A stretch of DNA of 64,000 nt. Origin: Anolis carolinensis. Taxonomy: Eukaryota. This document shows positions 33,425 through 64,000 of this stretch, in pieces. Each line of letters begins with the position of its first letter. Within the stretch, counting starts at the first letter, position 1. A program made the translations under genes and the position numbers. The notes under the pieces were generated by a model. It was not told where the DNA came from. It saw only the letters and a list, made by a program, of their open reading frames with translations, and ran no database searches. The DNA lies in the NCBI RefSeq assembly GCF_035594765.1, contig NC_085842.1, positions 294,175,749 to 294,239,748 of the forward strand, in the 5' to 3' direction.

Positions 33425-34180
33425 TGTTGACCAGGTGGAATAGCAGTGAATAGCCTTGCAGCCTCAAAGCCTGGCCATTTTCTTCTTATGTGAATCCTTA
33501 TTTGGTGAGCTGGAATACAATGGAATAGGATTGCTGCTTGGAAGGTTGGGTACTTGCGTTCTGGGGAATGGTTTTATGGCCAATCTGAATTGCTCTGAAT
33601 AGCCTCGCTGCTTCAAAGCCTGGCCTCTTTCTATATAAGGACATCCTTCCTTGGGCAGGTTGAATGGGACAGAGTAGCCTCATGGCTTCAAAACCTGAGG
33701 GTTTTCTCTCTAGGGGAAATCTTGGTTGGCCAGGTTGAACAGCACTGAATAGCCTTGCTGCTTGCAAGCCTGGCTGCTTTCTACATAGGGGCATCCTTTG
33801 TTGGCCAAGTTGAATGGGAGGAAGTAGCCTCATGGCTTCAAAACCTGAGGGTTTTCTATCTAGGGGAAAATCTCGCTTGGCTAGGTTGAATTGCACTGAA
33901 TAGCCTTGCTGCTTCAAAGCCTGGCTGCTTTCTACATAGGGCCATTCTTCGTTGGCCAGGTTGAATGGGACAGAATAGCCTCATGGCTTCAAAGCCTAGG
34001 GGTTTTCTATCTAGGGGAAATCTTGGTTGGCCAGGCTGAACAGCACTGAATAGCCTTGCTGCTTGCAAGCTTGGCTGCTTTCTACCTTGTGGGATTCTTG
34101 GTTGGCTAGGTTGAATAGCAATTAATAGTCTCGGTGCAGCAAGTATGAATGCTGCAATTAGCCACCTTGATTAGCATTTA
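33425..34180. repeat. 75-bp tandem repeat (about 10 units, alternating A/B types)
   Basis: A ggccaggttgaa-like anchor recurs near 33429, 33503, 33578, 33653, 33728, 33803, 33879, 33954, 34029 and 34103. The ORF translation shows 25-aa periodicity. Confidence 0.9.
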
Positions 34181-34377
34181 ATGGCCTTGCAGCTTCAAAG
34201 CCTGCCTGCTTCCTGCCTGGGTGAATCCTTTGTTGGGAGGTGTTAGCTGATTGTTTCCTTTCTGGAATTTCCCTGTTTTCAGAGTGTTGCTCTGTATTGT
34301 TCTGTATTATTATACCACAGTAATTATTATATATTATATTTATAATCTTATATTATCTGCTTAGAACTGGATTATAT

Positions 34378-42498: not shown

Positions 42499-42954
<456 letters not shown>

Positions 42955-43802
42955 TTAAAAGAAGAAAGGAACAATTCAGTAAAGTGTTTATGGCTCTGAT
43001 TTTAAATGAGCAAAGTAGATCCACAGGCAGAAAACTGTGTTTAAAGAAAGAGTATCATCTCAGATGGCAACTGTGGTCTTCAGCAGCCACTAAAGGTCAC
43101 TCACAAAACATTGTGCATATAAATAGGTTCACACACACAGAGTGGTAATTGTGGTGGGCCATGGCTACAAAAAAACCCAAAACACAGGAAATTGACTGAA
43201 CATACCAGTGGATGTCAGACCCTCGATTACTTTCAAACTCTCACAAGAGTACATTTTTTCAGAGTCTAAAAACATTAGTTAGAACTTCCATCTGTGGAAT
43301 CTGGCAACATTTTACTACTCTCAGTAAATAAATAACAAGAGCCCCAGGGCTGTGTTCATATTTACAAAGTCAAAAACAATGTTCAATATTTCTATGCAAG
43401 TGGGCTTCACTTTTCTAGTGTCAATCTACACTACTATACAGTTGGCCACTATGATAACTCTCACCAAAAAAACACAATACAGTAGTTTTATGAAGGGTGT
43501 ACCTACAGAAAGCCCAGAAATACCAGAACTAACAAGCTTAAGCACATAGAAAGTGCAAGTAAAGTGCCCAGACTGTATATAAATGTTGTTCACTAGCACA
43601 ATGGGCATAGAACAAATGCAGGTAGGTTACAGCCAGCGGAGCACCCTGGTTATACATCCACTCCCTTGGGGAATAAAAGGCCATCACAATCACGTGGTAT
43701 ACCTTTGTAAGAAAATGCCACATGTTTCAATGCTCCCCCACATAGAAAGGGAACTCCTCAAATGTAGGGGATAAAATTATTAACTACATTTCTGCTATAT
43801 AT

Positions 43803-43856
<54 letters not shown>
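43803..43856. repeat. (ATAG)13 microsatellite
   Basis: Pure tetranucleotide run. Confidence 0.98.
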
Positions 43857-43857
<1 letters not shown>

Positions 43858-46242
43858 TAAATTCTGTAAAAGAACTTGTTCCCATTTTCCAAAACAAACA
43901 TTGATGTTTTACAGGGGATGACAACAAAACCTTCAATGAATGAAAGATGAGATTTCGACAGAGAGACAGAGGTACCCTATGCTTTGATGGTGATGGCCAC
44001 TCCTTTGTAAAAATCATCAGTATCCATTATAAACATATGTTGCTGCCAAGGTGGCTTTGGGAAATGTCGGTTTGAGGTTTTGTATAGTCCATATATGTTA
44101 ATGTTTTGAGGAGAGGGGAGACCCTGTGTAAATGCAAAGAAAATTAGCCATCCCATTAAAAACAAAACATGCACATGTGTACATATGCTTTCTGTGCATT
44201 GGGCACATGACCATAGGGATGCCCAAAGAGCTTTCTCAAAATTAAAGAAGTGGTTGAGAATCCTCAAAAGGTAAAAACCCCTGCTGTGTCTACATTCCAA
44301 AATGCTGGCCATTATGCTTTCATCGCTCATTTAATTTTTTTATGTGTTCTCTTCCACAGAGGTACATTGTAGGCCTGACATAGGTCATAGTTACATATTA
44401 ATAGGTGTTTTAGATTACAAGCCAGGTATTGCACAGACAAGACTTTTGTACCAAAGGTGAAGTATCAATTTTGTACGTTCAAAGAACTGGACAACACAAG
44501 ATTGATGGGAGTGATCTGGGGTGTGTCTTTTAAGCAAATGCGTACTACAGGATGCAGGGTAAAACAAAGTAAACCAGAAAAAGAAAAAAACCACAAAGCA
44601 CTTCAAGGTTGCACAAATTCACTTTGGAGTGAAATTAGTTTTGATAAGGACCTTATCCCCTTTCCCAATACCTTTTAATAAATTATCTCCTGCTGACTAT
44701 ACCCGATATTCAATAACATCAAAACTTTTGCTCGAGGGAGGGGGAATTCTAATTACTAAAAAGACATTCAATATAGGACTAATATGAACTCAAGAGGATG
44801 AACTCATGAGGTTCTCTTCTGCAAAAGGAAGTGTTTTATGTATCAGAAGTTCTCACACGTAGAAGGCCAAGGACAGGAGATTTTCTCAGATTTATGTATC
44901 TCTCAACTGGCCCATGATACGATTTTTTATGTACCTCCTGTCCTCTGAAGCACGTGGATGGGCAGCAAAGGGAATCAGGGAGGATCACCTCCATTTTCCA
45001 CCAGTGAACCCACAAGATGAGCATGGTTTCACTATGTGATCCCAGGATCCAAGAATGCGTATTAAAATACTATTCTGGAGTCATTGGATTTATTCTAACA
45101 CCACAGAATGAAATACAGTGCACCTGCACATACACACATACTGCTTGTACTATCTTCAAGTAGTTCTTGAATTGGAATGACCAAAAACAGGAAGAAATAC
45201 AGACAAGTTCAAGAGAAAAAAATAGACACCTAGGACCACCGATCTGCAATATATTATACTTTATAAGGAATTTCATATGGAGGTTCACTTCTTTCTTATC
45301 TTCCTTACTTCAATAGAAATTATTATTTAGAGTAATCTCAGGTGATAAGTACACAAGTTTCCAGTCAAGGCAGCAAAAATATGTTATGGAAAACCACAGC
45401 AGTGAACAGTTCCAGGATGAGAAGCTGTGATGGTTTAACACCAACCACTCTGACCTCAAGATTCCAACTGTCTGGAAACACAGACATATCCAATTCAGTG
45501 CCTAACATTGTGGTGAGACAGCCCTCAGTATGACTTTGAAGGGACACAGGGATTGACATTTACCACAAACTAAGAGCACACATGATAATGGCTAGACAGC
45601 CAGTCATAATGGAAACAAGTGAAAAGGCCTGAGATTAAAATGCAATTGGTTTGAGATATAATTTTCTGTTCCCAATTTTTACCAAACACAACTGAGATCA
45701 TGATACAAAGCCAGGCAGTGATAATGTTTTTGCCAGAATTTCCAATAACGTTTTGCTAGTACCCTGTATCCATCTGTTTCTATTTCCAGTTGATAAAATT
45801 ACATCAAGAAGCTGTTATGTGCTACTAGTACATTTCATGAACTTGGATATAAAAATACTTCTTTAAAAATCCATCCTACTAAAATGGTATATGAAACAAG
45901 ATTTAGGTCCTTGTCTGTTAGATACTGAAATTTTAAACAATGAATTGTTTACAAATGCTTTTTTTCAGCTCATTGATATTAAAACTTCTCAACCCAAATA
46001 TATAAATTGGTCAGTTTTTGATAGAGAGATCAAAGATTTGAGGGTGTCTCTAGAAATGGAGACCAGTACAAGACCCCAGAAGGAGGAGCTTGCGAGAAGC
46101 AGAAAAAGATTTCCCTATTCTCCAATAAAAAGCTCACCAAGTTCTAAGCAAAGGCCAGTTTATTCTGGTCCAGCTGAAACAGGATGATGGTCGCAATAAG
46201 TTGCAAGAAGGACCAGCATGCCATTATACAAGAAAATCCACA

Positions 46243-46415
46243 TTTTATACTTTTTACATTTTGAATTTCCCGCTCCCGCCCACCCGACCGGCTTCGCCCT
46301 GATTGGTCAGGAGAGTCCCTGACGTCAGAGGCTGGGAGGAGTGGTCCGGGGGCTCGCGCGCCTCAGCCAATGGGAGCGCGAGCCCCGCCTGTGACGTCTC
46401 TCCCGGCTAGCCAAT
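46243..46415 (-). promoter_or_regulatory. CpG-rich Pol II promoter cassette (LTR U3-like)
   Basis: TATAAAA at 46249-46243 (minus). CCAAT at 46302-46306 (minus), 46367-46371 and 46411-46415. Perfect CRE TGACGTCA at 46320-46327 and a near-CRE at 46392-46399. GC boxes near 46275 and 46383. Confidence 0.7.
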
Positions 46416-46827
46416 GGGGGAGATGGAGGCGCGGCAGCAGGAGAAACAAAGGCAATCATATGTTGATGAAGGATTAATGAGTGACCCTATACTGGGTCTA
46501 TTGTCAAGTGGTCCGGCGAGAGCCCCAGGGCCCTGCTAGCTGGACCTGTCCTATTGATACAATGATTGGAATAACAAGTCCCTTGAATAAGGGTCTGACA
46601 CCTAGATGTCAGTTCCATTGTCCAAAAGGCATAATCATCAGCAATCTTGATGAGATTATGTGATTCAGAGTTCGGGAAGGGGAAATGGCATTGTCTTGCA
46701 GCTGTGGCATACCTTTGCCTCCCCGCGGAGGAGATATGCCATTCATGTGAACTGATTAGAATGTCCAAAGATTGCTCCATTCTTAAGTGGTCTGTCTTTG
46801 CCCTATGAGGCTTAAGAAAGAGTGTTA

Positions 46828-47150
46828 CAGTAGAGTCTCACTTATCCAAGCCTCGCTTATCCAAGCTTCTGGATAATCCAAGCAATTTTTGTAGTCAATG
46901 TTTTCAATACATCGTGATATTTTGGTGCTAAATTCGTAAACACAGTAATTACAACGTAACATTACTGCGTATTGAACTACTTTTTCTGTCAAATTTGTTG
47001 TATAACATGATGTTTTGGTTCTTAATTTGTAAAATCATAACCTCATTTGATGTTTAATAGGCTTTTCCTTAATCCTTCCTTATAATCCAAGATATTCGCT
47101 TATCCAAGCTTCTGCCGGCCCGTTTAGCTTGGATAAGTGAGACTCTACTG
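46828..47150. mobile_element. Young Tc1/mariner-type MITE (323 bp)
   Basis: Perfect 24-bp TIRs CAGTAGAGTCTCACTTATCCAAGC with TA TSD. Confidence 0.95.
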
Positions 47151-48774
47151 TATTTCCAGAAGATTATCATGACAAGTCCATTGAGTCAGGATATGGCCTG
47201 AGGCAGGCTGGTGGCACCCAGGTCAGGATGGAATGCTGGCCAAAAGTTCATATCAGGGTCACTGTGCTTCATTTTATAAGGGGCAAGATGTCATAAATAA
47301 TAATAATCAATATCAAATTGATAGGAGACACATATGGGACTCACAATGGGGGAGAAAAGGAGATCCAGCATCCCCATTGTGTTGGGAGAAAAATGCAGGT
47401 TTCATCCATGGGGCTTCGATCTCCCCTGTGTTTCCTATGGGGGACAAAGCAAGGGATCCCAGAAGTTCCCCAGCAGCCCAGCAGGCAAAAAGGCTTTTGG
47501 GGTTCCCTTAGAACTGGGAGACGCTGCAAGGGGTACAAAGGGGTTCATGCAGGAGGGGGTAAAGGGGTTCCTGATACCTTGAGAATTCATAGGAAGGCGC
47601 AGAAGGACATTTCAGATCGCTTTGCCCGTGCTCATTCATAAAAAGGCAATTCATTCATAAAAGGGGAGCCAATTCATCTGTCAGGACGGGAATTGGGGCC
47701 ATTGTGGCTAAAAGCAGGATAGCAGTTTAGTTTAGAATGTGTTCCAGAGTGAAATGGAATTGGTCCGGAGTGAATCCATGAAGGTGTGGATACGGGGGCT
47801 TGGTGGGTTTCCATATCCGCGGTTGGAAAAACTGTGTTCGCTTGTTCCTGAGGCGGTCCTGCTGGCTGAGACTGGAAAGGAGTTTATTGTTAGTTTTTGA
47901 GTTGCAAAAAGAGCCTGCAAAAGGAGCTCTTTTGCAGGTTGGAAGTGAAAGCAAAAAGCGGATACAATTTATTACCCTTGTAGCAAAGGACAATGGAGCC
48001 TTGATTGAGAGCGGCTGCCTGTGGTTTTCAGCTACTGTAGCTGCTTTGAAGAGGGGATACAATGTTTCTGTGTGGTTGAAGCTTATCTAGAGTAGAAATT
48101 CTTATGAGCTTGTGTAACTCCTGGCAGTGATCAGCTGTGTGTCAAAGCAATGAGAGTGTGGGGGCTTGTGCACTCAACATCATTTTGATGCCATTAAAGG
48201 AGCACTTCTGGATATTTGTGCATTCAAAAGGCAAAGCGATAGATTTTACTGACCAGGTCCATCAACCAAGTGAAAAAGTTATCAAATTAAAAATGGGACA
48301 TTATAAAGAAATCAAAGTATATACAAAAATGGGACATTATAAATGAGAGGAAATATGCAGTATCCTGGACATTAGTTTGGGGCTGCAGAAATGAGCAAAC
48401 AATACCCATTCCTACCTTCTACTTGAAAGATCAGGATCATGTAACAAAATTGCTTCTGCAAGTTGAAAGGTGAGTTGACTAAAATCCAATTTGTTACTAT
48501 ACCACCGAAACAAGATTGTTGGTTTTCAAAACAAACATTAAGCACAGTTTGCTAGTTCAGATATAATGGCAATCTCTACAGTTTGCCTTATATCAGAGAA
48601 GAAGGGACAGGGTCTATAGGCTGGAGGATTTTGGTCGGTTTGCTCAGAAAATTCCCAATCATTGCTTAAGAGAAACAATTTACTTAAGGACCAAGTGCCC
48701 AAAACAGTAATTTAAACAGAAAGCTAATGCCCTTACTTTCAAGTAGTCTAAGACACATCAAAGCCTTAAAATTC

Positions 48775-48928
48775 ATGCAGTTTGACACCACTTTAACTGC
48801 TATGAGTCAATATTAGGGAATTATGGGTCTTTAGCCTTTCCTGTCAAATAGTGCTGGTGCCTCACCAAACTAGTTTTCGAGATTCCACAACACTGGTCCA
48901 TGACACTTAAAGTGGTGTTGAACAGCAT
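48775..48928. mobile_element. Old palindromic MITE
   Basis: atgcagtttgacaccactttaa ... ttaaagtggtgttgaacagcat imperfect inverted repeats. Confidence 0.6.
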
Positions 48929-51005
48929 TAATCCTACAGTACATCATAATATTTTCTGCAATATACATGGACTAGTATGACATTTATTGTGCAAGAAAAC
49001 AGATTCTCGGTTTGTTCTTCCTATATGAGCCTGCTTGAGCTTTAAGATATTCAGGGGTGGGTTTTCTCTCAGGCCACCATGATCACTGGTAAGGTTTGTG
49101 AGGACTTGAGAGGACTTCCTTCGTGGCTGCTCCCAGGCTATTGAACTCCCTGGCTATGTGAGTCTTCTGCTTTTAAACTGGTTGGGAAAGTGCAATGTGT
49201 ATGCTGCCTTTTAATGTGCATGAGATCTTCAACTAATGGACCCCACCCTGATTTGATAGCTTTCTACATGGACAGAATGTTATATTGAAACACATTTGAC
49301 CATCTGATCTCCCACCTGCAATCTTATACCATGCATTCTAGACAGAGTTATGCCTTCTCAGAGAGGCCATAATGCTATTATCTACCAACTACTGCTTCTC
49401 AGTGAGAAGACAGGGTATGCCCACAGTGACTTTTTAAAAAACCGTTTGGTTTAAATTACTGCAATCCTTTATCACGCCTTTCCTGTTTATATAGTAGGAG
49501 AAGCCTGTCTATACTGATAAGAACTGCGGAAAGCATCAAGAGCCTCCAACATTTCCTTTGTTTCCTCTTCCAGATTCACCATTTGGTTACAAAATTACAG
49601 CAAGTTCCATATAAAACTGCTTTACTTTCTAGGAAATGAAGAAGTACTTATTTGTAATCAACAGATTTCTAACCACAATCAGACTCACATATCAAGTCAG
49701 CTTGCTCTTCCAATGTATATCACATAAATCACCCATGAAAGAAAGTCCAGACCCTTGAAGATATAAGAGATATATAAACAGAGCTCTCTTTCAACAGATG
49801 GGTATTCACTGGACGGTTGACTGGACAGCAGTCACCAAACAAGATGACAGAAAAGCTAGTTCAATTTCCAGTGCAAATTCCCCTACACATTCCCTCTTGG
49901 CAATGCAGACAACATTTAACTACCAAAACCTGCCAGTTTCTCTTGCAGCAAGAGAAACAAATGCCTGAGTATATGTTCGTCTGTAGTAATAATTTGAATG
50001 TAATACAAAAAAGAGATGAGCAAACCTCTTACAAACCAATTCTACCCCCCCCCCCCCCCCCAACAAGCCAAAAAGAGTTCTTAAATGTGCTTCCATTAAA
50101 AGCTACTGGCTTTGGTCGCCAGAATGCTCCCTGCTCCTCATCTCCCTTCCGTCTCTTGTGGACTATACAGCATACATTAGCTATTCATTACATGGGAAGG
50201 AATCGCAGATAAAGCTGCACCCTGCTGAGGAAGACTACTACTTTACATGTCAATTTCAGAATGAGCGCATCTGCTACTGTACTAATATGTATATTTAAAG
50301 CTGCTGCAGATTATATGCTGTTCGTTGTCTGTTTGTTGAGATATTATGAACGTCTAAGAAGCACTGCTCAAAATTATTCCCTTTGAGGCCTCAATTTCCT
50401 GCTATTTTTTGTAAAGACACCCACAATACCACCACCCCTCGAACTGCATATAGACTGTGCCCATTTTAGGAAGGCAGTCAACATAATTTAGATGGGCTAA
50501 CCAAGTTGCAGTCAACAACTGCTTATACACTTTGTTGGTATAACCTTAACAGTTAACAAAATCCATCTACCACATAAGCAAAAAATATTCATAACTTAAA
50601 ATACATGGCAGAGTGAACACAACTATATTACTATAAATCAGGAAACACACATAAGCAATCACCCAGTAAAAGAAATATACATTATCAAACCTATGAAGCC
50701 ATTTATTTTACTACAACATTCTAGAATTAAAACCTTAGCCTTTTAATTCTTGGTTTTACTCCATCAATACAGGATCACACTGTATTGGTAGGAAAATAGA
50801 ATGAGAAGGACCAACTCTCAGAAATCACTGATAAATGGCTGATACTGCTGAACAAAAGCTGTAGATGCACGGGGGGGGGGGGGGGGGGCAATAAAACACA
50901 ACCAATAACACTTCAGGGTTCCAAAACCTCTTAAAACTATTATATGCACTCACTCGTGCCAATTTTCTAGCCTTGCCATTTTTATGCACAACAAATCTAC
51001 AAATA

Positions 51006-51320
51006 CAGCAGAGTCTCATTTATCCAACATAAACGGGCCGGCAGAACGTTGGATAAGCGAAAATGTTGGATAATAAAGAGGGATTAAGGAAAAGCCTATT
51101 AAACATTGAATTACATAAGCACCAAAACATCATGTTTTACAACAAATCAACAGAAAAAGCAGTTCAATACACAGTAACGTTATGTAGTAATTACTGTATT
51201 TACGAATTTAGCACCAAAACATCTCAATTGACTACAAAAACACTGACTACTAAAAGGCAGACTGCGTTGAATAATCCAGAATGTTGGACAAGCAAATGTT
51301 GGATAAGCGAGACTATACTG
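51006..51320. mobile_element. Tc1/mariner-type MITE, opposite orientation to the 46828 copy
   Basis: TIRs CAGCAGAGTCTCATTTATCCAAC / GTTGGATAAGCGAGACTATACTG with TA TSD. Confidence 0.92.
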
Positions 51321-53892
51321 TATTTGAGGACAAGTTTTGAAAGGTGTCTGAAAGAACAAGTGGTCTGATGCCTAATAAAATTAAAATCTAATTCAAGCCC
51401 AGAGCAAAAAAATATTTTGCCATATTACTTATCAGTCTCCTTCAACTTAAGAGATATAGAAAATTCATGTTGTAGGACAGTGTGGTACATGCAGCCCACC
51501 AATTCATGTTTGTTGGCCTGTGCCATTCTTACTGGAAAAATATTTTAATTTAACATTTGGAAAAAAACATTTATCCTTCTTACTGCTTTAAGCTTTTGAA
51601 TACAATATGTAATTCATTTTCTTTCTGGAATGTCTCTGGCCCTCACAGTCCTATACTCAAGTTTGATTGGCCTTCGGGTAACTAAAGGTTGGACTACACT
51701 GTTGTAGGAGATTAATCATAAACCATATCAGTTGTCTCAAGGTACCCAAGATCCTAAAACAGTATGACCTCCTGGCTGCATGTGACCACAACATGCAGCC
51801 CCTTCAAACGTTTAAAAGACTCTTGAAGCCCCCAGATTCTCCCTAAAATAAAAATCCATGCAACCAAGCACCTGGGTATCAGTATCCATTTTCCGCTCCC
51901 ATCCAATTTCATAGAGCATTAATGTCTGACATATGTCACTCCTTGTAGAAATGACCTCATCCATGCACAAACACGTCTGAGATACAAGAGAAAATATCTT
52001 CTGGAGACTGTGGGAATACTGAATGGGAACTATCATCTCCAGTTTCCTTCTACATCAAAGATCATTGCGTACTCTGATAAAAGATGAAGCCTCGGGGAAG
52101 ATAAATAGGAGCACCCAACTGAAAGGTTCATCGAAATGGAGTACACAGGTAGCAGCGTCCCACTTTTTCTCTAATAGAACCTCATGGAATATCACTGATA
52201 TTTGGCAACTGCTCCTTCTGACAGTAATGACCGAATATACATACAGTATACGACATATTAAGGGCAACCACAAGAAAGAAAAAAAGCAAGAGATGATCCA
52301 CTGATGAAGCCAAGGAGGTAACCAACTGGTAATCATAATATAAATTGACCTATTGAACCAATGGGAGTTGCACAACTTGTTGACTTGCAATCTCATGGGT
52401 ACACTCCCATTACAATTATCAACTGAATTTATATTTCAGATCATGTATCCTGCACTGTGAAATAGCACCTAGCCATTGACATGTGTTGCACAATGTTGAT
52501 ATTCTGCATGGAAGTCGCATAATGCTCAGAGAGAGCATTTATGTGTGCATATACTTACACTAAGGGAATGTTGGACAGCATTCACAATGTGGCACTAGAT
52601 GGCAAGAACTGAATCTAATTGATAATAGTACTCAATATATATGCAGAAAGCCTTTACAAAAGATAGAACAATAGTAGCCCCAGACTGTATCAGAAAGTAA
52701 AGGTCAAGGTAAGATAAGGCATTCCAGTCCTAATCTTAAACTATGAGTTTATATTAAATCATGATAGCAAATACAAGGCATTGAAATGGGCAGAAGTAGT
52801 AACTGTGAAGAATTGCTATAGACAGCAATTCTTGATAGCAACTATGGTGCAATGCCAGTCTCAGCTGCATCAACCCTTTCAATGCCACTGTGGGCTCTTT
52901 CTACATCCAGTACCGAACTGGCCATCAGTCAGTCTCACATCAGCTCTTCAATTTCCATAGAGAGCTAATTGAATAGGATTAAAAAGGTACAGATAAAAAT
53001 GTTTTAAACTTATTAAATAGCCACGATTTTCATCTCACAGTAACCTGCTCATGAACTATACCCAGATTTCATGTTTATCAACCACAAATGCTGCCTGTCT
53101 CTTCCTAAAGGGCAATATGCAAGTCTGTTCATCAAACCACAGTGGTTTTAAATACAGCCTTTTATCAACTGCTTGATCTAAACACAGATATATGTGTCGA
53201 GTAACTATCTTTATTCTCACAAAATCACACTTGAGTGTAAACTTCACAGTCATTTGGTTTCTCTGATAGAAATAATCAACTACAATTTTAATAAGCATTA
53301 TTTGCAGTCTGCACAAGATGTGCATTTGTTACAGAAGTCCATTACAACAATACTTCAAGCACATGTAGTATATGTCCTAAAACCAAGGTGCTGAACATCA
53401 CAAAGAGCAATGGAGAATTCTATATACATATTTCTTAATAGCAGAGATTAGCACATCTAGTTACCTAACACTTCACAAAAACAGTTACTGTACACCTTTC
53501 CTCCAGCACCTGCAACCAAAATTCATTTTGTTAAAACTAACACGCATCTACTGAAATAAAATCATTTAACTAGTTTATATTAGCCATCAGTGTGTTGTCC
53601 TTACGCCATGTCAAAATACAAAACAGACATAAAAGGAAATACTAACCTAACCCCAGAAGGAATATATTAAGGTTATGTTTAAAATGTCGCTGCTTAGTAA
53701 GGTAAGCAATTGTGTTTAACTCTATATAATTTCCAAAGATTCGATAATTCCAAGATCAGATTATAAAGGTTGAAACTGGTTTCATAAGGGCTGCCAATAT
53801 AATTCAGGAATACCCAATCTTTTCCTATAGCCAGTCTATTGTTCCACATCCATATCAAATATCAAACAAAACAACAATCAGAATTTTAAGTA

Positions 53893-54196
53893 CAGTAGAG
53901 TCTCGCTTATCCAACGTAAATGGGCCGGCAGAACGTTGGATAAGCGAATATGTTGGATAATAAGGAGAGATTAAGGAAAAGCCTATTAAACATCAAATTA
54001 GGTTATGATTTTACAAATTAATCACCAAAACATCGTGTTATACAACAAATTTGACAGAAAAGTTCAATATGCAGTAATGCTAAGTAGTAATTACTGTATT
54101 TATGAATTTAGTACCAAAATATCACGATGTATTGAAAACACTGACTACAAAAATGTGTTGGATAATCCAGAACGTTGGATAAGCGAGACTCTACTG
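53893..54196. mobile_element. Tc1/mariner-type MITE, same orientation as the 51006 copy
   Basis: TIRs CAGTAGAGTCTCGCTTATCCAACG / CGTTGGATAAGCGAGACTCTACTG with TA TSD. Confidence 0.94.
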
Positions 54197-54266
54197 TATA
54201 GGGATTTATGACCTGCAAGGAACATCACAGCAAGATGGAGACCATACTGGCCCCCAGCCACTAACT

Positions 54267-54826
54267 CAGCGGTTTCCAACCTTTTCTGACCAGGGACCAC
54301 TTTGACCAGGGACCACTCTCCAACATTAGTACCAAAAGCGTTACGAATCAGTTTTTTGTCAGCTTTAGATTTGATTTGGTTATCTGGGTTGCTGATTCAG
54401 AAAATTGCATTGGATAGACCACATAAGCTCTAGTTTCTGATACAGAACATATGCCACCCAGTAGTTACCATCTGCTTGCGCACAGAATACCATATTTAAT
54501 AATCTAGAGCTTATGTGGTCTATCCTATGCAATTTTCCGAATCAGCACCTCAAATAGTTCCAGGAATAGGCCTAAAATTGAAGACACCAAGGCGTCCTCA
54601 TTTCCAGGCGCCACATGGAACGGTTCCGCTCAGGGGGAGAGATGAGAAGTAATGTAATCAGGTAATGATAATGATAATGGTAATCAGGCTCTCCCCTCCT
54701 GACATCCCCGTTGCCTCAGCACTATAAGAGGGTTTTGTGAGACCAGTTGCTCTCATTGCAATGGTGTAGTAACAGTGAGGCCATGAACCATATTAGTTCT
54801 TAGGGACCACAAGTTGGGAACCACTG
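54267..54826. mobile_element. Non-autonomous hAT element
   Basis: TIRs CAGCGGTTTCCAAC / GTTGGGAACCACTG, TSD CACTAACT / AACTGACT, subterminal GGGACCAC repeats. Confidence 0.85.
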
Positions 54827-56429
54827 AACTGACTACAGAGGTTCCTGCTCTGATGTTTGTTTTTCTCTCCATCTTTCCCAACGTTTTCCCTCCACTACAC
54901 TTTGAACCTGCAGGCAAGAATGATCCTGTCAATGTATCTCTTGCACTTTGACCTTAGGTAGGAAGATATGATCTTTCAGATAGTGATAGATTGCAACCCC
55001 TATCACCCTTCATGAGTGGCCACGTGCACTGAGTTGACAGGAGATGTAGTTCAACATCTAGACAGCTGCATATTCCCTATTTATAATTTTTTTGATTATA
55101 AGAGGAAGAGGACATAATGATGACAATGGATAACTGAAAATCAAGAGAAATATTTGCTGCTGGTCTGTATATTCTGTAAGTAGACATTGACCATTATCCA
55201 GTTTTCATAGCACAGGGTTATATCCATCACCTTCCTATTGATATATTTAAATAGGTATATGATGTAACCAATGAGGGACTCATAACCATTTAACAGGCTA
55301 AACAACCAACAAAAATGCCAGAAATAAAGACAGAAAGTTTGTGGAAACTGAGATTTTGTTGTTGGTGCAAAGTGCCTGGATGATCATGCATATGAGCTTG
55401 TTTCAGGCGTTCATAATATATTCTAAGAACTAAAAGGCAAGGAGATCAAACAGTAAAACTGTTCCTGGATTTTATCAGCTCAGATTGCAGGAAAGGTAAC
55501 TGTCTGACTCTATGCCCCAGTCACAACGTACTCAGCAAAGTAAAACTTAGATGGCTTCTATCCCAGGTCATCTTGCTTTCTTCACATAAGGCTATTTTTA
55601 TTCCAACTTGTGAAAAACCATCCTCTTCCAATATGAGTTTCTTTACAGATTATGATCTGTGTAACTTTGTGTTCTTTCTCTATGTTTATGAGCAAAAAAC
55701 ACCTTATTTCACTAACTTGTCCTTTGTAAGTTTTTTTTTAGTTTATGAATGGTGAAATATAATATCAGGACAGCTATTAAATGTCTAACAACAACAAAAC
55801 TGAACAAGAAAAAACAGCCTTCTGCTGAATCAGTAGCTCTAGTTAACATACTGGACACATCTCAGGGTTGTATCATTAATATCAAATGTTGCCAACAATT
55901 TGTTCCTATATCCCTCCCACAGAAATCCATGCAACCCCTTCTTTCTTGCTTGATCAGTTCTTTGGTGGTACATAAGTATTTGGCCGCTGGGCTTTACTAC
56001 TTTGTTGTGATCTTGAAGATGCTGCTCTTCTTTAAGTATTTTATTGAGGAGAAGAAAAAAATCAATAATGCCTTGAGGCAGCACATCAGCACATCCTTTC
56101 AAGAGAGGCTTCTGCTGTGATAAAGAAAGCAAATTGTTCCGTTTCCATCTAGATTTAAAATATACATTTGATTTTGCCACCTACCTGGCCACACACCATC
56201 TGAAGGTGTGAATTTAAGGAGTAGGTTACCTCCTATTTTCCCTCACTTCCCAATTTACCACATTATGACAAACCTATGTACTGAACACCAGAGTCATAAA
56301 CCACAGGAGACATTGGCATAACTGAAATGCTGAAAACAAATAACTTTTCCTTGTCCTAAATACAGTTTTGAAAAGCTTTAACAAAGTTTTGTTTAATATG
56401 ATTAATGCAGTAATATTATTATTGGTGCA

Positions 56430-56975
56430 ATATCCAAAATACTTGAGTCCAGAAGTGTTTTGGATTTTTTTTCCATTTTTGAATATATATTTTTGCATAT
56501 ACGCATATAATGAGGCATCTCACACCTGGATCTCAAGCCTAAACACATAACTCATATAGCCTGTATACAAACAGGCTGAAGGTAATTTTCTAAAAAATTG
56601 TAATGAATTATGTGAATGAAACCAAAGTTGTGTAATAAAACCAACAGAAAACAAAGGATGCTACTACCTCAGTTACCCGTGTGGAAAATTTAAGATTCTG
56701 AAGTAGCATTGGTCTTCCATATCCACAGATTCTGCATTCATGGATTAAGCTATACATGGCTAGAAAATAGTTTTTAAAAATTGAAAAGGCGAACCTTAAT
56801 TTTCTCATTTTAGATAAGGGTCATCACTTTCTGAGACCACTGTATAGAATTGGGTTTGAGGATCCATAGATTTTGGTACCTGTAGGATTAGAGTCCTGGA
56901 ACCAAATCCCAGCAAATACCAAGGGCCTGATATATTTTGGATTTTAAAAATTTGGATAAGGGGTGCTCAGCCTGT
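56430..56975. mobile_element. Tigger-like MITE with a second nested MITE (~56704-56932)
   Basis: tatccaaaatacttgagtccagaagtgttttggattt start and ggataaggggtgctcagcctgTA end. The internal ccatatccacagattc...aaataccaagggcc segment looks like a separate MITE. Confidence 0.55.
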
Positions 56976-58028
56976 ATTTTTCATTTTTAAAGTCCACCTA
57001 TGGTATATAAAATAACACCAGCTTGAATGAGTGTAGGTCAGTAGATTGTTCAAATCTTCAAGACTGTTGTGGCTGGACCCTATGGCTCAATTTACCCATT
57101 CCACCCAGAATTTAATGGGCCCAACCTAGCATGATACATATCTGACCAATGATCCTGGTTCCCAAATTCCAACCACTCCAAAAATGAAGGTTTCATTTAC
57201 TGTTGCTGAGAAAGGAGGGAACAGGGAGGCAGCATTGCCCTGAAATTCTCTCAGAGAAGCAGGCTGTTGTTTTAGAACAAACAGCAGCTTGTTTCTATCG
57301 CTCCTTTGTTTGACAAGTTTGGGCTGGCTAGAAAGGTCATTTATGCCTCAAAGCATCAAATTAACATTTGGAGGACATGAATTTTAAAAATGGCTATTTG
57401 GTCCTGCTTTCTGAATTCGTAATGTATTTTTTTTTTAACTAGATGTAGCCACAATTCAAAAGAATAGAAGTAGACTTTCCTCAAGCAAACTAAGCATTGA
57501 TTTTATGTCTGAGTCAGACATGCTGACAATATCTTAATTAAACTTTATTTTTTAAGTGCTAGGCTTATGCCGCTAGCCTAATGTTATATTAAAATCATGG
57601 AACAATTTGAAATAAAAAATATTGATTAATTAACACAAGAGGGATCTTCAGAAGATTAATACAACTATTCCTCACCCATATTTTAGACACATGTACAGGA
57701 TTCAACAGTAGCAAATCATGAAACAGTAGAATTTCACCATGGAGAATCTCTAGACAGCTAACTGTTAATGTTGCTATTAAAATGCAAAACATTTTAGATC
57801 TGAATTTGTTTGGATGACTCAACTAGCATACACCCATTGAATCAATTGTAGAATGGAAAGTCAACATGTACACGTATATACATCCCACTAATTCAATAAG
57901 TCTACTCTAATCACCAGGATTCAACCCATATTTCAAGAGTTGTTTTGTCCCAAAGCAGATTTGTGTATCTATAATTGTGTAACAGACAATGGAAGGCTGT
58001 CATTGAAATTATAAACAATCTGCCAATA

Positions 58029-58124
58029 GGGTTGTTGTATGTCTTTCGGGCTGTGTGGCCATGTTCCAGAAGCATTCTCTCCTGACGTTTCGCCCACATC
58101 TATGGCAGGCATCCTCAGAGGTTG
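58029..58124. mobile_element. Penelope-like element terminal fragment
   Basis: ggccatgttccagaagcattctctcctgacgtttcgcccacatctatggcaggcatcctcagagg; homologous to 38881-38944. Confidence 0.85.
58081..58121 (-). ncRNA. Minimal type I hammerhead ribozyme motif (Penelope-associated)
   Basis: Minus strand reads ccu CUGAGGA u GCCUGC cauagau GUGGGC GAAAC GUC agg: core boxes, 6-bp stem II, palindromic ACGU stem III, GUC cleavage triplet and 3-bp stem I. Confidence 0.8.
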
Positions 58125-58682
58125 CCAATAGCCTCCTGTCATGGAGGGATGACTGAGATTTGGTAATATGTGCATGTCTATTTCAGATATATGTTTTATA
58201 TTAACATATATACAATGACAAATTAGAACAATGAAACATCAACAATATAGGGATGATTTATCTTATACAAAGAAGACTTAACTTCTGTTAAATAGCAAGA
58301 TAAAAACCAAGTCAGTCAGGAAAGCAGAGCATCAAATCAACTGATCCCAAAAAGCTTTGTGGAGCAATGTATTTTGATCTGGTACCTCAAAACACAAATG
58401 TTGGGGCTAAGAAACCCTCTGAAGAAATTCCATAAGGGTGGCACCACAGTGGGAAAGAATGCATCCCTATAAAGTAAACTGACATGCATGCTGAAAAAAT
58501 AAATCTGCAGAGTTATTAGCCCAACATCAGTAGTTAGTGTTTTCAGGTTTTAAAAATAGCAATAGCGTATTAGCACAGTCAAAACATATGGTATGCAATA
58601 CTGACCACCAGTAGGCATCTATTAATAAGTTTGTGTTTTACCTAACTATCAAACAAAAATACTGATATCAGTTAATCAAGCT

Positions 58683-58966
58683 ATTTATTATTATTATTAT
58701 TATTTATTGTGTCAGAAGAGATTTGAGAACATATTGCAAGTAGCTTCTGGTGTGAGAAAATTGGCCATCTACAGAAACATTGCCCAGGGGATGCCCGGAT
58801 GTGTTGCTGGGAGGCTTTTCTCATATCCTTGCAAGCTAGAGCTGACAGATGAGAGCTCACTCCATCTTGCAAATTCGAACCGGCAACCTTCAGATCAGTA
58901 ACCTAACCTTTAGGTCAGCAGTTCAGCTGGCACAAGAGTTTATTAACCCATTGCGCCACCGCAGCT
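58683..58966 (-). mobile_element. tRNA-derived SINE with (TAA)n tail
   Basis: Minus strand head GCGGTGGCGCAATGGGTTAA, B box GGTTCGAATT, 3' end ...tctgacacaataaataataataa (Vingi-like tail, from memory). Confidence 0.8.
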
Positions 58967-60149
58967 TCTTATTTGTTTTTAATTTAAAAGTCACATTTCT
59001 GTCTTTGTGTGCCACAAAACACGAGAGAGTGATTGACATCTTTTTCATTTTATATAAAAGGGAAGGTTTTCCAACCCATAAATAGGAGACATCCGTTATA
59101 ACAAGGAATATCCTTTATAGTAAGGCACATGCCAGCCCTATAAAGGGCAAGCTTTCTGGCCTTCAGAAAAGGGATACAGTAAGGGGTATCTGGCAACACG
59201 GTCACTAGCCCTTCTGCTTCATATCTGTGACATACCTGACAGCCAGAAAATACTTTCCAGTTCAAAAAAAAAAACTATCTGAAGGCAAGTGGCTTTAATA
59301 ATACTGGAAAGAAGACTTATAAATACTGCTAAGTCTTTTTGCTTAGGAACCTTTCATTAATAAATTAATATTTTCCTCTACTACAGAAATCTCACCATAT
59401 TCATATGCTTAATTCCATCCATCAAAACAAAGAAGCAAACACTTTCAATGGTCTTTTGGGGGATTTAAGTATTGTGAACTGCACACAAGGTATTCTACTC
59501 CCATAATTTGATACATTCTTCTGGAAAGACTAATGTTCCAATGCAAATATATTAAATTTCTTTTAAAAAGCACAGGCATGAACATTCCTTGGTGATGAAG
59601 ACAATGAACTTGTGAACCAATGCTGGCTTAATTAGTAATATGTACAGAACTGTTTGTACAGGCAAAGAACACGTGGCACAAGCATTTGCACTTCAGTTCA
59701 CTCCTTTAAAACTGCCAGAATGAGCAAATATTTCCTAGAAAGGAAAACAGTGATTTCAGTTGTGTCCATCTGCACCTGCTGATGGGGAAAGCAAATGCAT
59801 CAATTTGCACTGATATAGCTTAATTGAGCTAATTAAAAGTAATTCCCAAGGATTGGTGAAAGGAAGGCGGGCCTTGTCAGAAAAAGCTATACCTGACCTG
59901 CAAACCTTTAAGAAAAAGAAAGATTGTTATTGAAAAGAAAGGCTTCAAGTTCTCCCTAGCAGTATGCCTCTATCAGGACAAAGACATGTTTCACTTCCTA
60001 TTGTGAATCACAATCAGCTACTGAACTCTAATGCAAGTCATGTACTACCTTCTCAGTCAAGAGGCAAGAATTACCATAGAGCTTCACATCTTTTCTTAAG
60101 TAGGGAGGAGGTACTCCTAAAGGGATACTCTAGATTTTACTACAAAGAC

Positions 60150-60345
60150 TTTTACTACACATGGGATAAGGAATGCCAGATTCAGGAAAGGAAAAGACAA
60201 CAGAGATCACATTACAAACAGTGGAAAAGGAGGTCATCAAAGTATATCAGACGAACCTAGTATGGATTATAACAAATCTTTTGATTATGTAACTCATGAA
60301 AAATTATGGATCACTCTAAAAGCATCACAACATCTAACTGTCAGT
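60150..60345 (+). mobile_element. Degraded RTE/BovB reverse transcriptase fragment
   Basis: DYNKSFDYVTHEKLWITLK resembles the RTE motif DYxKAFDxVxHxKLW. A GFRKG-like ccagattcaggaaaggaaaa lies upstream. Confidence 0.7.
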
Positions 60346-62153
60346 AAGAGCAATCTACACTTTGCATGCAGGGAGTTGGATATATTTTCTAGAGTCAGGC
60401 TGTGGTGGCAAGGAATGGCAGGAAAAAATCTAGAGGCTTCAAACAGCTACTTCTCCTAGTTTTCTTACTTCCATTATTATTACCGTTATTGTTTTATTTA
60501 CTTATACCCTGCTGGTGTAGTTATGGATGGTGTAGTTAGGCTTGCACAGTGAATCAACAGGATTTTTGCTTTTATCTCCTGTATATTTCAAGAAGTTACT
60601 ATTTGGGAAGTTTAGTAACACGAACACTCAAAAACTCAGCTCCCTTTGTTCCCAGTTCCATTTCTTCCTTCATGTGAAGAGGAGTTAATTTGAACAGAAG
60701 AGAATAGAACGTAATTGGGAATCTTGCTTGTTATAATTATATAATTGTGTGTGTGTATCAGGTCCTATTGCATGAAGTGCCTCTATGCTTATGGGAAATT
60801 CTCTTATCCTCCACATGAGTAGAACGCTTCTCTCTTGACAGAACATGCTCAGATAATTAAAGCAGTCATAGACAATCTGAAATATGGGAACTTCGTGCAG
60901 TCTACAGACAGAGAGGCCCTTATGTCAAAGGTCAATCTGTCACCATTGCTCAGCTGTCAGTACAGCTTTAAGGTACTCAATCTTCTTGGTTTCAATTACA
61001 CCAAATTCACCACTTTGCAACCAACATCTGTCTTTCAGCAAGCCATACAAGCTTTAACTGATTTTGACTTGCAATATGTTCTGGTGACACCTGAAACCAA
61101 AGGGTTAATTTCATCTATTTATAACGTATGATACATGGCTCCTTCAAATTTGGGTACTTCTTCAGAGACAGAACACTCCAAATCCATGCCTACCCACTAA
61201 CAGTTAGCAATCTGAAATGAACAACTTAATATCTATCTCAGCTAAGGTTAGAAACCACTGCAGAAATAAATGCATCAGTATTGTAGTACTTTATCTCACC
61301 GTGAGTCCACCAAGAGTATATTAACATACATACCATGAAGAATGTATTGACAGACATGACGAATGAGTGGTGGAGCTGCTGAGCTGTGGCTACTTTCCTT
61401 ACCAGGGCTGCCCAAAGAATTTTGTTACCTAAAACACAGTGCCAAATGATACTTCTCTCCTCAAATCAAAGTACATAGCAGCAAGCTCAACTAAGTCATT
61501 TTCACATTCTGAAACAAAACAAACAAGCATCTCTTCCTTCCTGCCAGACACTAGTAATAACAACACTATAAAAACTACTTAATTATTAACTACACCCAAA
61601 AGTCCTCTACTGTTTGAGATAGTCACCTTAGTCTGTCTGGTGGTCAGCTCATCCCGGTTTTTTTTTACTTTAACAGCTAGAATTTTCAAGATTGTTCATT
61701 ATTCTCCCCATTGAGGGCTTACATTTGCTGTCTCAGCTGCATACTGGGAAGAACATGTGGTTGCACATGAAGAATTTATTACTTTATTAATTGCTATATA
61801 TTGTAAAGGTTGAACACTGAATGACCCTGGATTCCTGCTATCTACAAAACTGGTTCTCCCAGGTTTGGGATTTTGCCCTTCAAGAAAAATTAAGTCATGG
61901 AACTAAATTATCTTGAGCCATGGCTATAGCAAACCTTATAATGTACTGTTTCCATTTATGTACTGTATCAAAAACCTAACTTTACACATCCACTCTCAGG
62001 TGTTTTAGAAATATAACTTCATTCAATGTGCATTATTGCCATACTTTATTGTCCTGATCTCTTGTGCTAGAACTATTGTCCTCTGACCTTCTCCACTTGC
62101 TGAATTTAACAGTGTTTTTCAAGGTAAGAAGCAAATCTTTCTTTACAATCATA

Positions 62154-62306
62154 GGGCCCTTCTTCCACACAGTCAAATAACCCAGAATATCAAGGCAGAA
62201 TAATCCACAATATCTGCTTTGAATTGGAATATCTGAGTCCATACTGCCATATATCCCACTTCAAAGCAGATAATGTGGGATTTTATTCAACTGTGTGGAA
62301 GGGGCC
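62154..62306. mobile_element. PIF/Harbinger-like MITE
   Basis: TIRs GGGCCCTTCTTCCACACAG / CTGTGTGGAAGGGGCC, flanked by a 3-bp ATA repeat. Confidence 0.8.
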
Positions 62307-63775
62307 ATAGATAATTTCTAGGAGACTGTGTTATTAAACTGTTTTCTATATTGATTAAATTTTAAGGTAGAGTTCTAAGACACAAACACTTTTTAGATAG
62401 TGAAAACTGGGTCCTACTCCATGTGAGTATGACTTCTACCTCTTCAATTTCATGCCCCAAGCCAAACATTATAGACAGTGAGAAGTGAACAATGCCATCT
62501 TGTCTTCATTTTAGAAAGTTTGATTACCTTGCCTGCGGCACATTCACTACGCATGAGGTTCAGCTCCCCTTTATTAGAGAAAGGCCTCAATAGGGACCAA
62601 GTTAGTCTCAAAATGATCTGACTTCATTTCTACAAACACAGCTGTGCTCCTCATTTACCAACACATGAACGTTTGTTAAAATCTGTAATCAGTTCCCATC
62701 TCTTCTACACAATGTAATGGGCTTAACAGAGATGTTCTGTTGTGTAAATGCCTACGCTGTTTTATTAGTGTACTGTAATGTGTTTCCCCTGCTTAAAAGG
62801 AAAAAAAATGAGGCACCTGTTTCCTCAACAGCCTGAAAGATCATTGAGCTTAATTCACTGTGACAAAGAGACTTTGTGTTGCAGGCAAAAGATACTTGAT
62901 ACCACAAGAAGTTACTCCCTTCCATATATGTCTACCTTTTAAAACTGGGGAAAGGAATCTCAAGTTTGCTATCTTATTAACAGCTGGGGACATATACATC
63001 CCCATATGACCTGACACTGATGGAGACAGAAAGGCGGGTGAGGACTGGGACAGCAGTCTTGAAGTACTATATTATTAGAAAAATGAAAACCATGTTTCAT
63101 TAAGCAGCTCTAGAAGGTTTAATTTAAAAGGTCTCAAATAAGATATGGTGGTCCTATTTTACTATTTTCTAAATTTAAAAATTAACTTTAGGTTTGGTTT
63201 GAAATTCTAAACTTTAGCAGCAGCAAATGGCTCAGTTGTACTGCACATGCTCTGCATACAAAAGAGCCCAGTTTCAATGCCTGACAATCTTCAAGAAGTA
63301 GTAGTAAAGAAGTGTGCCTGAAACCCCCAACAGCCACCGGACGTAAATGCTGACAACATCAAGCTAAATGGTTCAGTGGTCTGACTTGGTATAAGGCAGC
63401 TTCCTATCTTCTGCATAAACAGGATTCCCAGAGTTTACGGACTTTCTGAACTACTTTTGGAATGAACTTCATAAGCAGTGATATATGTAGATTCTCTTTT
63501 AATTGAACCTAAAGAGATTTTATGTAGCCAGAATTTATTAGAGCAGCCCCCACCCTTATGTCCTTTAGGAAAAATCTGAAGACTTTCCTGTTTGGAATAG
63601 ATTTTAATTGATCTGTAACAGAAGCCCAGAATTTACAGCACTTTGTAATTATATTTTCTCTCCATTCTGAACATTTTAGAGTGTTTTTACTTATTTTAAT
63701 GATAATTTTAACATCCTACAAGGAAGGACTATGTAACCTATTTGGGTTAATTGTAATGTTCTATTTTATATTGTA

Positions 63776-64000
63776 CTAGCTTGGGGATCCGGCAGTGCCC
63801 GGGTTATTAGAAGAAGCCATTGAACTACAACTGCCAGATCTAAGGTCAGTCACCCCCAAACCAGGCCTTGTATGCATAGTTGGCCATGTTGGGTCTGTAT
63901 GCCAGGTTTGGTCCAGATCTGACATTAGCTGGGTACAGTGCTTTCTGGATGCAGGTGAACTACAACTCCCAAAATCAAGGTCAATTCCCCTACACCCCTG
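63776..64000 (-). mobile_element. Helitron 3' end (element continues beyond the window)
   Basis: Minus strand ends with hairpin CCGGGCACTGCCGG, then ATCCCCAAGCTAG|T. An internal gaactacaact...aaggtca repeat recurs near 63823 and 63957. Confidence 0.8.

What the first reader, a model, noticed from the sequence alone, without database searches (positions are those of the whole stretch)
58081..58121. Intact-looking hammerhead ribozyme on the sense strand of ZSWIM6 intron 1
Seen: the minus strand (the pre-mRNA) reads ccu-CUGAGGA-u-GCCUGC-cauagau-GUGGGC-GAAAC-GUC-agg. It has all conserved core nucleotides, a 6-bp stem II (two G-U pairs), a loopless palindromic ACGU stem III and a 3-bp stem I, with predicted cleavage after C58084. 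Established: Penelope-like elements carry minimal type I hammerheads thought to work as dimers. Inference: this short insertion kept little more than the ribozyme and is transcribed with the host intron. It could cleave the pre-mRNA if paired with another copy. A lone monomer with a 3-bp stem I may be nearly inactive.
Basis: partly seen in the sequence, partly recalled or inferred. Interest (0 to 1): 0.7.

Follow-up and report, generated by a model that had tools for sequence, protein, structure and literature searches.

The report
Known lizard transposon ribozyme, polymorphic stub
This is a real but ordinary self-cutting RNA motif, identical to one already tested from a very common lizard jumping gene; it sits in a 93-base scrap that recently landed in a gene's first intron, is missing at this spot in other individuals, and likely does not cut the host gene's RNA to any useful degree.

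Summary
The motif is real at 58121-58081 (minus strand), and the full descriptor is not matched by chance (0 of 300 shuffles). It lies in a 93-bp insertion with a 9-bp target-site duplication, on the sense strand of a 46.7-kb first intron of a ZSWIM gene (ZSWIM6 by synteny and recalled sequence). The 97 matching bases are identical to positions -12 to +85 of PAc (Poseidon_Ac), the anole Penelope-like element whose hammerhead was tested in PMC11167929. There it did not cleave without PAc protein, and no RNA-seq ends were found at the cut site. The exact 41-mer occurs 12,566 times in this genome. The empty site is present in 3 of 4 runs laid, so the insertion is young and polymorphic, not domesticated. 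It cannot form stem III alone, and it lacks +86 to +172 of the minimal RNA for PAc activity. The only same-strand partner found in the gene is a diverged copy 30.8 kb away. Verdict: a likely inert passenger, already known. This scan reported the same element at other loci before.

The parts
58081..58121 (-). Minimal type I hammerhead of PAc/Poseidon_Ac; predicted cut between 58084 and 58083
   Evidence: identical to the RNA printed in the methods of PMC11167929 (compared by eye)
58030..58122 (-). 93-bp inserted sequence: 5'-truncated, tail-less PAc stub
   Evidence: empty allele skips 102 bases = 93 + 9
58028..58124 (-). 97 bases matching PAc positions -12 to +85; overlaps each target-site copy by 2 bases (microhomology)
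   Evidence: 0 mismatches to 12 of 13 copies in four loci with long elements
58021..58029 (.). Target-site duplication, left copy (9 bp)
   Evidence: 'both = 9' at the joint
58123..58131 (.). Target-site duplication, right copy (9 bp)
58110..58112 (-). PAc ORF start codon, overlapping A9 of the core and the start of stem II; opens an 846-aa ORF in full elements
   Evidence: PMC11167929 puts the cut 26 nt after the start codon, as here
42948..64000 (-). Host intron 1 (runs beyond the window to 89,643; about 46.7 kb)
42585..42947 (-). Host exon 2 with SWIM zinc finger (3' end approximate)

Best explanation
The motif is the hammerhead of the anole Penelope-like element PAc, carried in a 93-bp polymorphic insertion in intron 1 of a ZSWIM gene (likely ZSWIM6), where it is likely an inert passenger. 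Shown: identity to PAc -12 to +85, a 9-bp target-site duplication, 12,566 exact copies, and an empty allele in other runs. Inferred: the PAc endonuclease nicked an ATT-containing target, reverse transcription began at the proximal internal start near +85 (giving a tail-less copy) and stopped after about 95 bases, just past the ribozyme, and a 2-base microhomology closed each end. The ribozyme survives because it lies right behind the point where copying starts. It is presumably transcribed with the intron. It cannot close stem III alone, so cutting would need a second copy and, by the published assay, PAc protein, whose proposed binding region this stub holds only in part.
For: Identity to the tested RNA and to intact 846-aa elements with RVT_1 (E 3.5e-13) and a GxY..YxG motif. 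Copy number 6,339 + 6,227 with control 0, so 35% of 64-kb windows and about 15% of 46.7-kb introns (one strand) would hold one by chance. Empty-site joint at flank depth in X13, X14, X15, from three studies. PMC11167929: no cleavage without protein at 500 nM RNA, core mutants do not affect insertion, no RNA-seq reads begin or end at the cut. PMC4209133: a single minimal hammerhead from Schistosoma showed no cleavage and dimers only low cleavage. Predicted stem I pairing <=0.02 in all contexts, and stem II falls from 0.83-0.88 (81 nt) to <=0.01 in 131- and 221-nt contexts. 4,598 matches to a 23-nt motif with a core-breaking G12A change sit in the genome, with no excess over the milder C11.1U change (9,207).
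Against: Cleavage in cells was not measured here, and no raw RNA reads were available. The published assay used the -126/+235 RNA, which has an upstream arm predicted to pair with the bases just 3' of the cut (9 bp); this stub lacks that arm, so the negative result may not transfer. A second copy with all conserved core bases lies on the same strand of the same intron (C3 at 88,891). G12A copies are half as common as C11.1U copies, which could mean the core is kept functional in the active lineage. Folding models ignore hammerhead tertiary contacts. A 2026 preprint reports that hammerhead-bearing retrozymes are depleted from Xenopus introns (passages).
Confidence: 0.9

Rival explanations
1. 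The stub is cut in trans: an expressed PAc RNA or ribonucleoprotein supplies the second hammerhead and the helper protein, so the filled allele loses some pre-mRNA where PAc is expressed.
For: PAc is expressed and its protein assists cleavage in vitro (PMC11167929). The sequence is identical, so the ACGU palindrome gives a perfect 4-bp intermolecular stem III (-1.7 kcal/mol). Intact 846-aa ORFs exist (6 in 4 loci).
Against: Pairing rests on 4 + 3 bp helices. The stub lacks +86 to +172. No RNA ends at the cut in published RNA-seq, although standard RNA-seq detects such ends poorly (own knowledge). There is no excess of dead alleles that would suggest harm to the host.
Confidence: 0.05
2. The two same-strand copies in intron 1 (58,118 and 88,891) pair in cis as a double hammerhead and cut the pre-mRNA.
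For: They are the only two minus-strand descriptor hits in the gene span scanned, both have all conserved core bases, and the 5' copy is made first.
Against: They are 30.8 kb apart. The older copy has C15.2U and a G-U in stem I: heterodimer stem III +0.1 and stem I +1.5 kcal/mol as isolated duplexes, and its stem II probability is 0.21.
Confidence: 0.03
3. It is a domesticated intronic hammerhead regulating ZSWIM6, like the conserved amniote intronic hammerheads.
For: Intact core, sense strand, first intron of a conserved gene; precedent in RECK, CTCL and DTNB introns (PMC6155905 passages).
Against: Empty site in 3 of 4 runs laid, zero divergence from active elements, no stem III loop, and location expected by chance.
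Confidence: 0.01

Closest known systems
PAc (Repbase Poseidon_Ac) hammerhead of Anolis carolinensis, Frangieh et al. 2024, PMC11167929
   Same: All 97 bases identical to the printed template RNA (by eye); ATG at stem II; cut 26 nt after the start codon.
   Different: This copy holds only -12 to +85: no upstream pLTR, no tail (+86 to +118), no ORF body; it is embedded in a host intron.
Minimal hammerheads of metazoan Penelope-like elements, Cervera and De la Pena 2014, PMC4209133
   Same: Type I, long helix II, extra base between 9 and 10.1, G10.1-C11.1 pair, complementary 15.2-16.2, no helix III loop, mostly single dispersed copies.
   Different: Helix I is 3 bp here against 4-5 bp in the Schistosoma families. 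No Anolis mention was found in the 2 supplements searched (one file not searched).
Conserved intronic hammerheads of amniotes (RECK, CTCL, DTNB)
   Same: Type I hammerhead in an intron.
   Different: Those are conserved across species and have tertiary contacts (PMC6155905 passages); this one is a polymorphic, minimal transposon copy.

Membership tests
Hammerhead ribozyme (minimal type I, Penelope kind) | Conserved core CUGANGA ... GAAA ... UH | tested here: met
Hammerhead ribozyme (minimal type I, Penelope kind) | Helix II closed by G10.1-C11.1, extra base after A9, complementary 15.2-16.2 without loop | tested here: met
   traits listed in PMC4209133
Canonical hammerhead (Rfam models) | Match to a curated covariance model; intramolecular helix III | tested here: not met
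   no hammerhead hit at E<=10; no loop 3 in the sequence
Hammerhead ribozyme (minimal type I, Penelope kind) | Self-cleavage at the predicted site | not testable with these tools
   Published for the identical core in a longer RNA: protein-dependent, lost with C3G or G8C, partly rescued by the double mutant. Not tested for this stub.
PAc / Poseidon_Ac Penelope-like element | Sequence identity to the pLTR-ORF junction | tested here: met
PAc / Poseidon_Ac Penelope-like element | Parent elements encode RT plus GIY-YIG endonuclease in one ORF, in tandem units | tested here: met
   846-aa ORF at 2,664-2,666-bp spacing; RVT_1 E 3.5e-13; GIY-YIG seen only as a motif at residues 700-714, with no Pfam hit at E<=0.1
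PAc / Poseidon_Ac Penelope-like element | 3' end at an internal RT start, 5' truncation, AT-rich or ATT target with duplication | tested here: met
   ends at +85 like other tail-less copies; 9-bp duplication containing ATT. The position of the proximal start is inferred from the tail, as the paper's figure was not visible.
Domesticated intronic hammerheads of amniotes | Fixed and conserved at the orthologous intron | tested here: not met
   empty allele in 3 of 4 runs of the same organism label

The most novel reading that the evidence does not exclude
Thousands of identical, partly polymorphic PAc stubs on the sense strand of introns are cut in trans by expressed PAc RNA and protein. A transposon's ribozyme would then act as a segregating, allele-specific pre-mRNA switch for host genes such as ZSWIM6 whenever PAc is derepressed.
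Probability: 0.05. Interest if true: 0.75.

Novelty: already known. Interest (0 to 1): 0.12.

Why it matters
As it stands it matters little: it is one more copy of a published ribozyme. Its one practical use is that the insertion is polymorphic, so heterozygous animals give a natural filled-versus-empty control for the open question of whether Penelope hammerheads ever cut host pre-mRNA in vivo.

Tried and rejected
Rfam scan: no hammerhead model matched. RNA ends: no RNA holder is on record among the 24 runs listed and all laid runs were contigs, which cannot show ends; X17 (guessed RNA) had no cover left of the insertion, which says nothing either way. Only 4 of 24 listed runs were laid. Lünse et al. 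on dimer cleavage was not held; I saw it only as cited in a review. A forced stem I constraint did not take effect, so those lines were discarded. A genome-wide test of strand bias in introns through base skew was considered: the skew is visible at this gene, but the fetch limit would give about two standard errors even for a complete purge (my estimate), so it was not run. The CpG decay comparison has no wild-type count at the same length and cannot separate ribozyme constraint from ORF constraint (G12A also changes a codon) or from amplification of variant masters; it shows only that dead alleles are not in excess. A search for ZSWIM6 with ribozyme found one unrelated review (listing only). 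Figures 3 and S2 and the GenBank supplement of PMC11167929, and one supplement of PMC4209133, could not be seen and may bear on stem I and the RT start sites.

Full report
Observation. The bare core pattern is not significant in 64 kb (3 hits, 1.01 expected), but the full descriptor is (1 hit; 0 of 300 shuffles with stem I >=3 bp). Rfam does not recognise it at E<=10, which I attribute to the missing helix III (inference).

Host gene. A minus-strand reading frame at 42,954-42,496 matches ZSWIM8 in the PDB (E 1.2e-30) and the SWIM finger weakly. In the 200 kb fetched beside the window I found a CpG island at about 88-92 kb with an ATG at 90,352 and a donor at 89,643; the acceptor is at 42,948. 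The motif is therefore on the sense strand of a 46.7-kb first intron. The genome's single UPF0542 (SMIM15) match lies at window coordinate about 191,750 on the opposite strand, as I recall for human ZSWIM6; the paralog name is thus recalled synteny plus recalled sequence, not a tool result. A likely last coding exon lies near -12,700 to -13,700.

What it is. The motif sits in 93 inserted bases (58030-58122) between two copies of a 9-bp target (58021-58029, 58123-58131). A DNA search of the genome gave 756 first-look candidates, 40 scored, most at 100% identity. The exact 41-mer occurs 6,339 + 6,227 = 12,566 times, control 0, one per 147 kb. Following the sequence past its end led to long elements (239 matches; 4 loci fetched). 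In these the 97 matching bases have 0 mismatches in 12 of 13 copies, and the ATG inside the ribozyme opens an 846-aa ORF in 6 of them, with RVT_1 and a GIY-YIG-type motif (no Pfam hit for it). The template RNA printed in PMC11167929 (parts 1-3 of 4 and three supplements read as text; figures not seen) contains the same 97 bases, compared by eye. The insertion is PAc positions -12 to +85.

Age. Of 4 runs laid (of 24 listed), X13, X14 and X15, from three studies, carry a contig that joins 58020 to 58123, skipping 102 bases, at the depth of the flanks (12.3, 91.3, 5.6); X17 had no cover on the left flank. No filled junction appears among the pieces listed, but the list is partial and contigs show presence only. 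The insertion is young and not fixed.

How it arose (inferred). PMC11167929 reports cleavage at ATT and reverse transcription from two internal sites that bound the 'tail', the distal one at +111 to +118. Genomic copies end either after the tail or near +85 (the 30 loci were selected by a query that included this copy's flank, so their shared next bases are not evidence). This copy ends at +85 next to ATT and stops at -12, with 2-base overlaps into each target copy. Any short PAc insertion will contain the hammerhead, because it lies 55-95 bases behind the start of copying; no selection for the ribozyme is needed.

Does it cut? A15.1-C15.2-G16.2-U16.1 has no loop, so a monomer cannot form stem III (sequence). 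Predicted stem I pairing is <=0.02, and stem II is lost in longer contexts; such models ignore tertiary contacts. In print, the identical core in a -126/+235 RNA showed no cleavage without PAc protein at 500 nM RNA and 5 mM Mg2+, core mutants did not affect insertion, and RNA-seq showed no ends at the site. The minimal RNA for PAc activity ran from +20 to +172, of which this stub holds +20 to +85. A Schistosoma minimal hammerhead was inactive as a monomer and weak as a dimer (PMC4209133, parts 1-2 of 4 read). Against a flat dismissal: the full pLTR has an arm predicted to pair 9 bp with the bases just after the cut, which this stub lacks, so its fold differs from the tested RNA. And a descriptor scan of 264 kb found 5 hits, all PAc-like, of which two lie on the sense strand within the gene: this one and an older copy at 88,891 in the same intron. 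That partner is 30.8 kb away with weaker predicted helices. Across the genome the core-breaking G12A variant has 4,598 matches and the milder C11.1U variant 9,207: dead alleles are not in excess, but the test is confounded by the overlapping ORF and by master-copy amplification. A 2026 preprint (10.64898/2026.07.22.740005, passages only) reports intron depletion of Xenopus retrozymes, with 8 of 9 dimers inactive in vitro.

Comparison and verdict. It is a member of the PAc family by identity, and a minimal Penelope hammerhead by every structural feature tested. It fails the test for domesticated intronic hammerheads such as RECK (PMC6155905 passages). I found no paper on this locus, but the element and its ribozyme are published. 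Eight earlier notes of this scan on other loci of this genome reach a similar reading; they are not independent support. Novelty: already known. Interest 0.12. The boldest open reading, trans-cleavage of host pre-mRNA by PAc ribonucleoprotein, I put at 0.05.

Noticed in passing
G000 C2, window coordinates 88,971-88,801 (in L033), minus strand: Older, 79%-identical Penelope stub with all conserved hammerhead core bases (C15.2U), about 750 bases inside intron 1 of the same gene and on the same strand.
   Followed up: partly
window 39,247-38,871, minus strand: Old Penelope pLTR remnant (68% identity over 381 bases) in the next intron; the GAAAC half of the core is destroyed.
   Followed up: partly
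L051:1684-2427 and L052:1789-2432: Head-to-tail arrays of truncated pLTR plus hammerhead (220 bp x 3.4 and 173 bp x 3.7, 98-99% matches). Such arrays could form double hammerheads in cis and resemble retrozymes; they are better candidates for real cleavage than this solo copy.
   Followed up: no
L058, upstream of the ATG at 1479: In full PAc the pLTR has a segment predicted to form 9 bp with the bases just 3' of the cut site, overlapping stem I. It could be an off-switch that PAc protein must open, which would explain the protein dependence.
   Followed up: no
L002, L004, L006, L015, L018-L020, L023, L030 and others: Many PAc insertions are head-to-head pairs of a tailed and a tail-less end, so one hammerhead is always on the sense strand whichever way the insert lies in a gene.
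   Followed up: no
G000 genome-wide: At the CpG spanning C11.1-G12, the C-to-T variant is twice as common as G-to-A (9,207 against 4,598), where neutral decay would give about equal numbers.
   Followed up: partly
G000 C2, window coordinates about 180,250-193,860 (L042-L043): Cluster of Penelope stubs around the SMIM15-like gene, including a fold-back pair and two intact cores on the plus strand.
   Followed up: no
window 33,498-34,300: Imperfect tandem repeat with long open frames and weak similarity to the pLTR query (73% over 104 bases).
   Followed up: no
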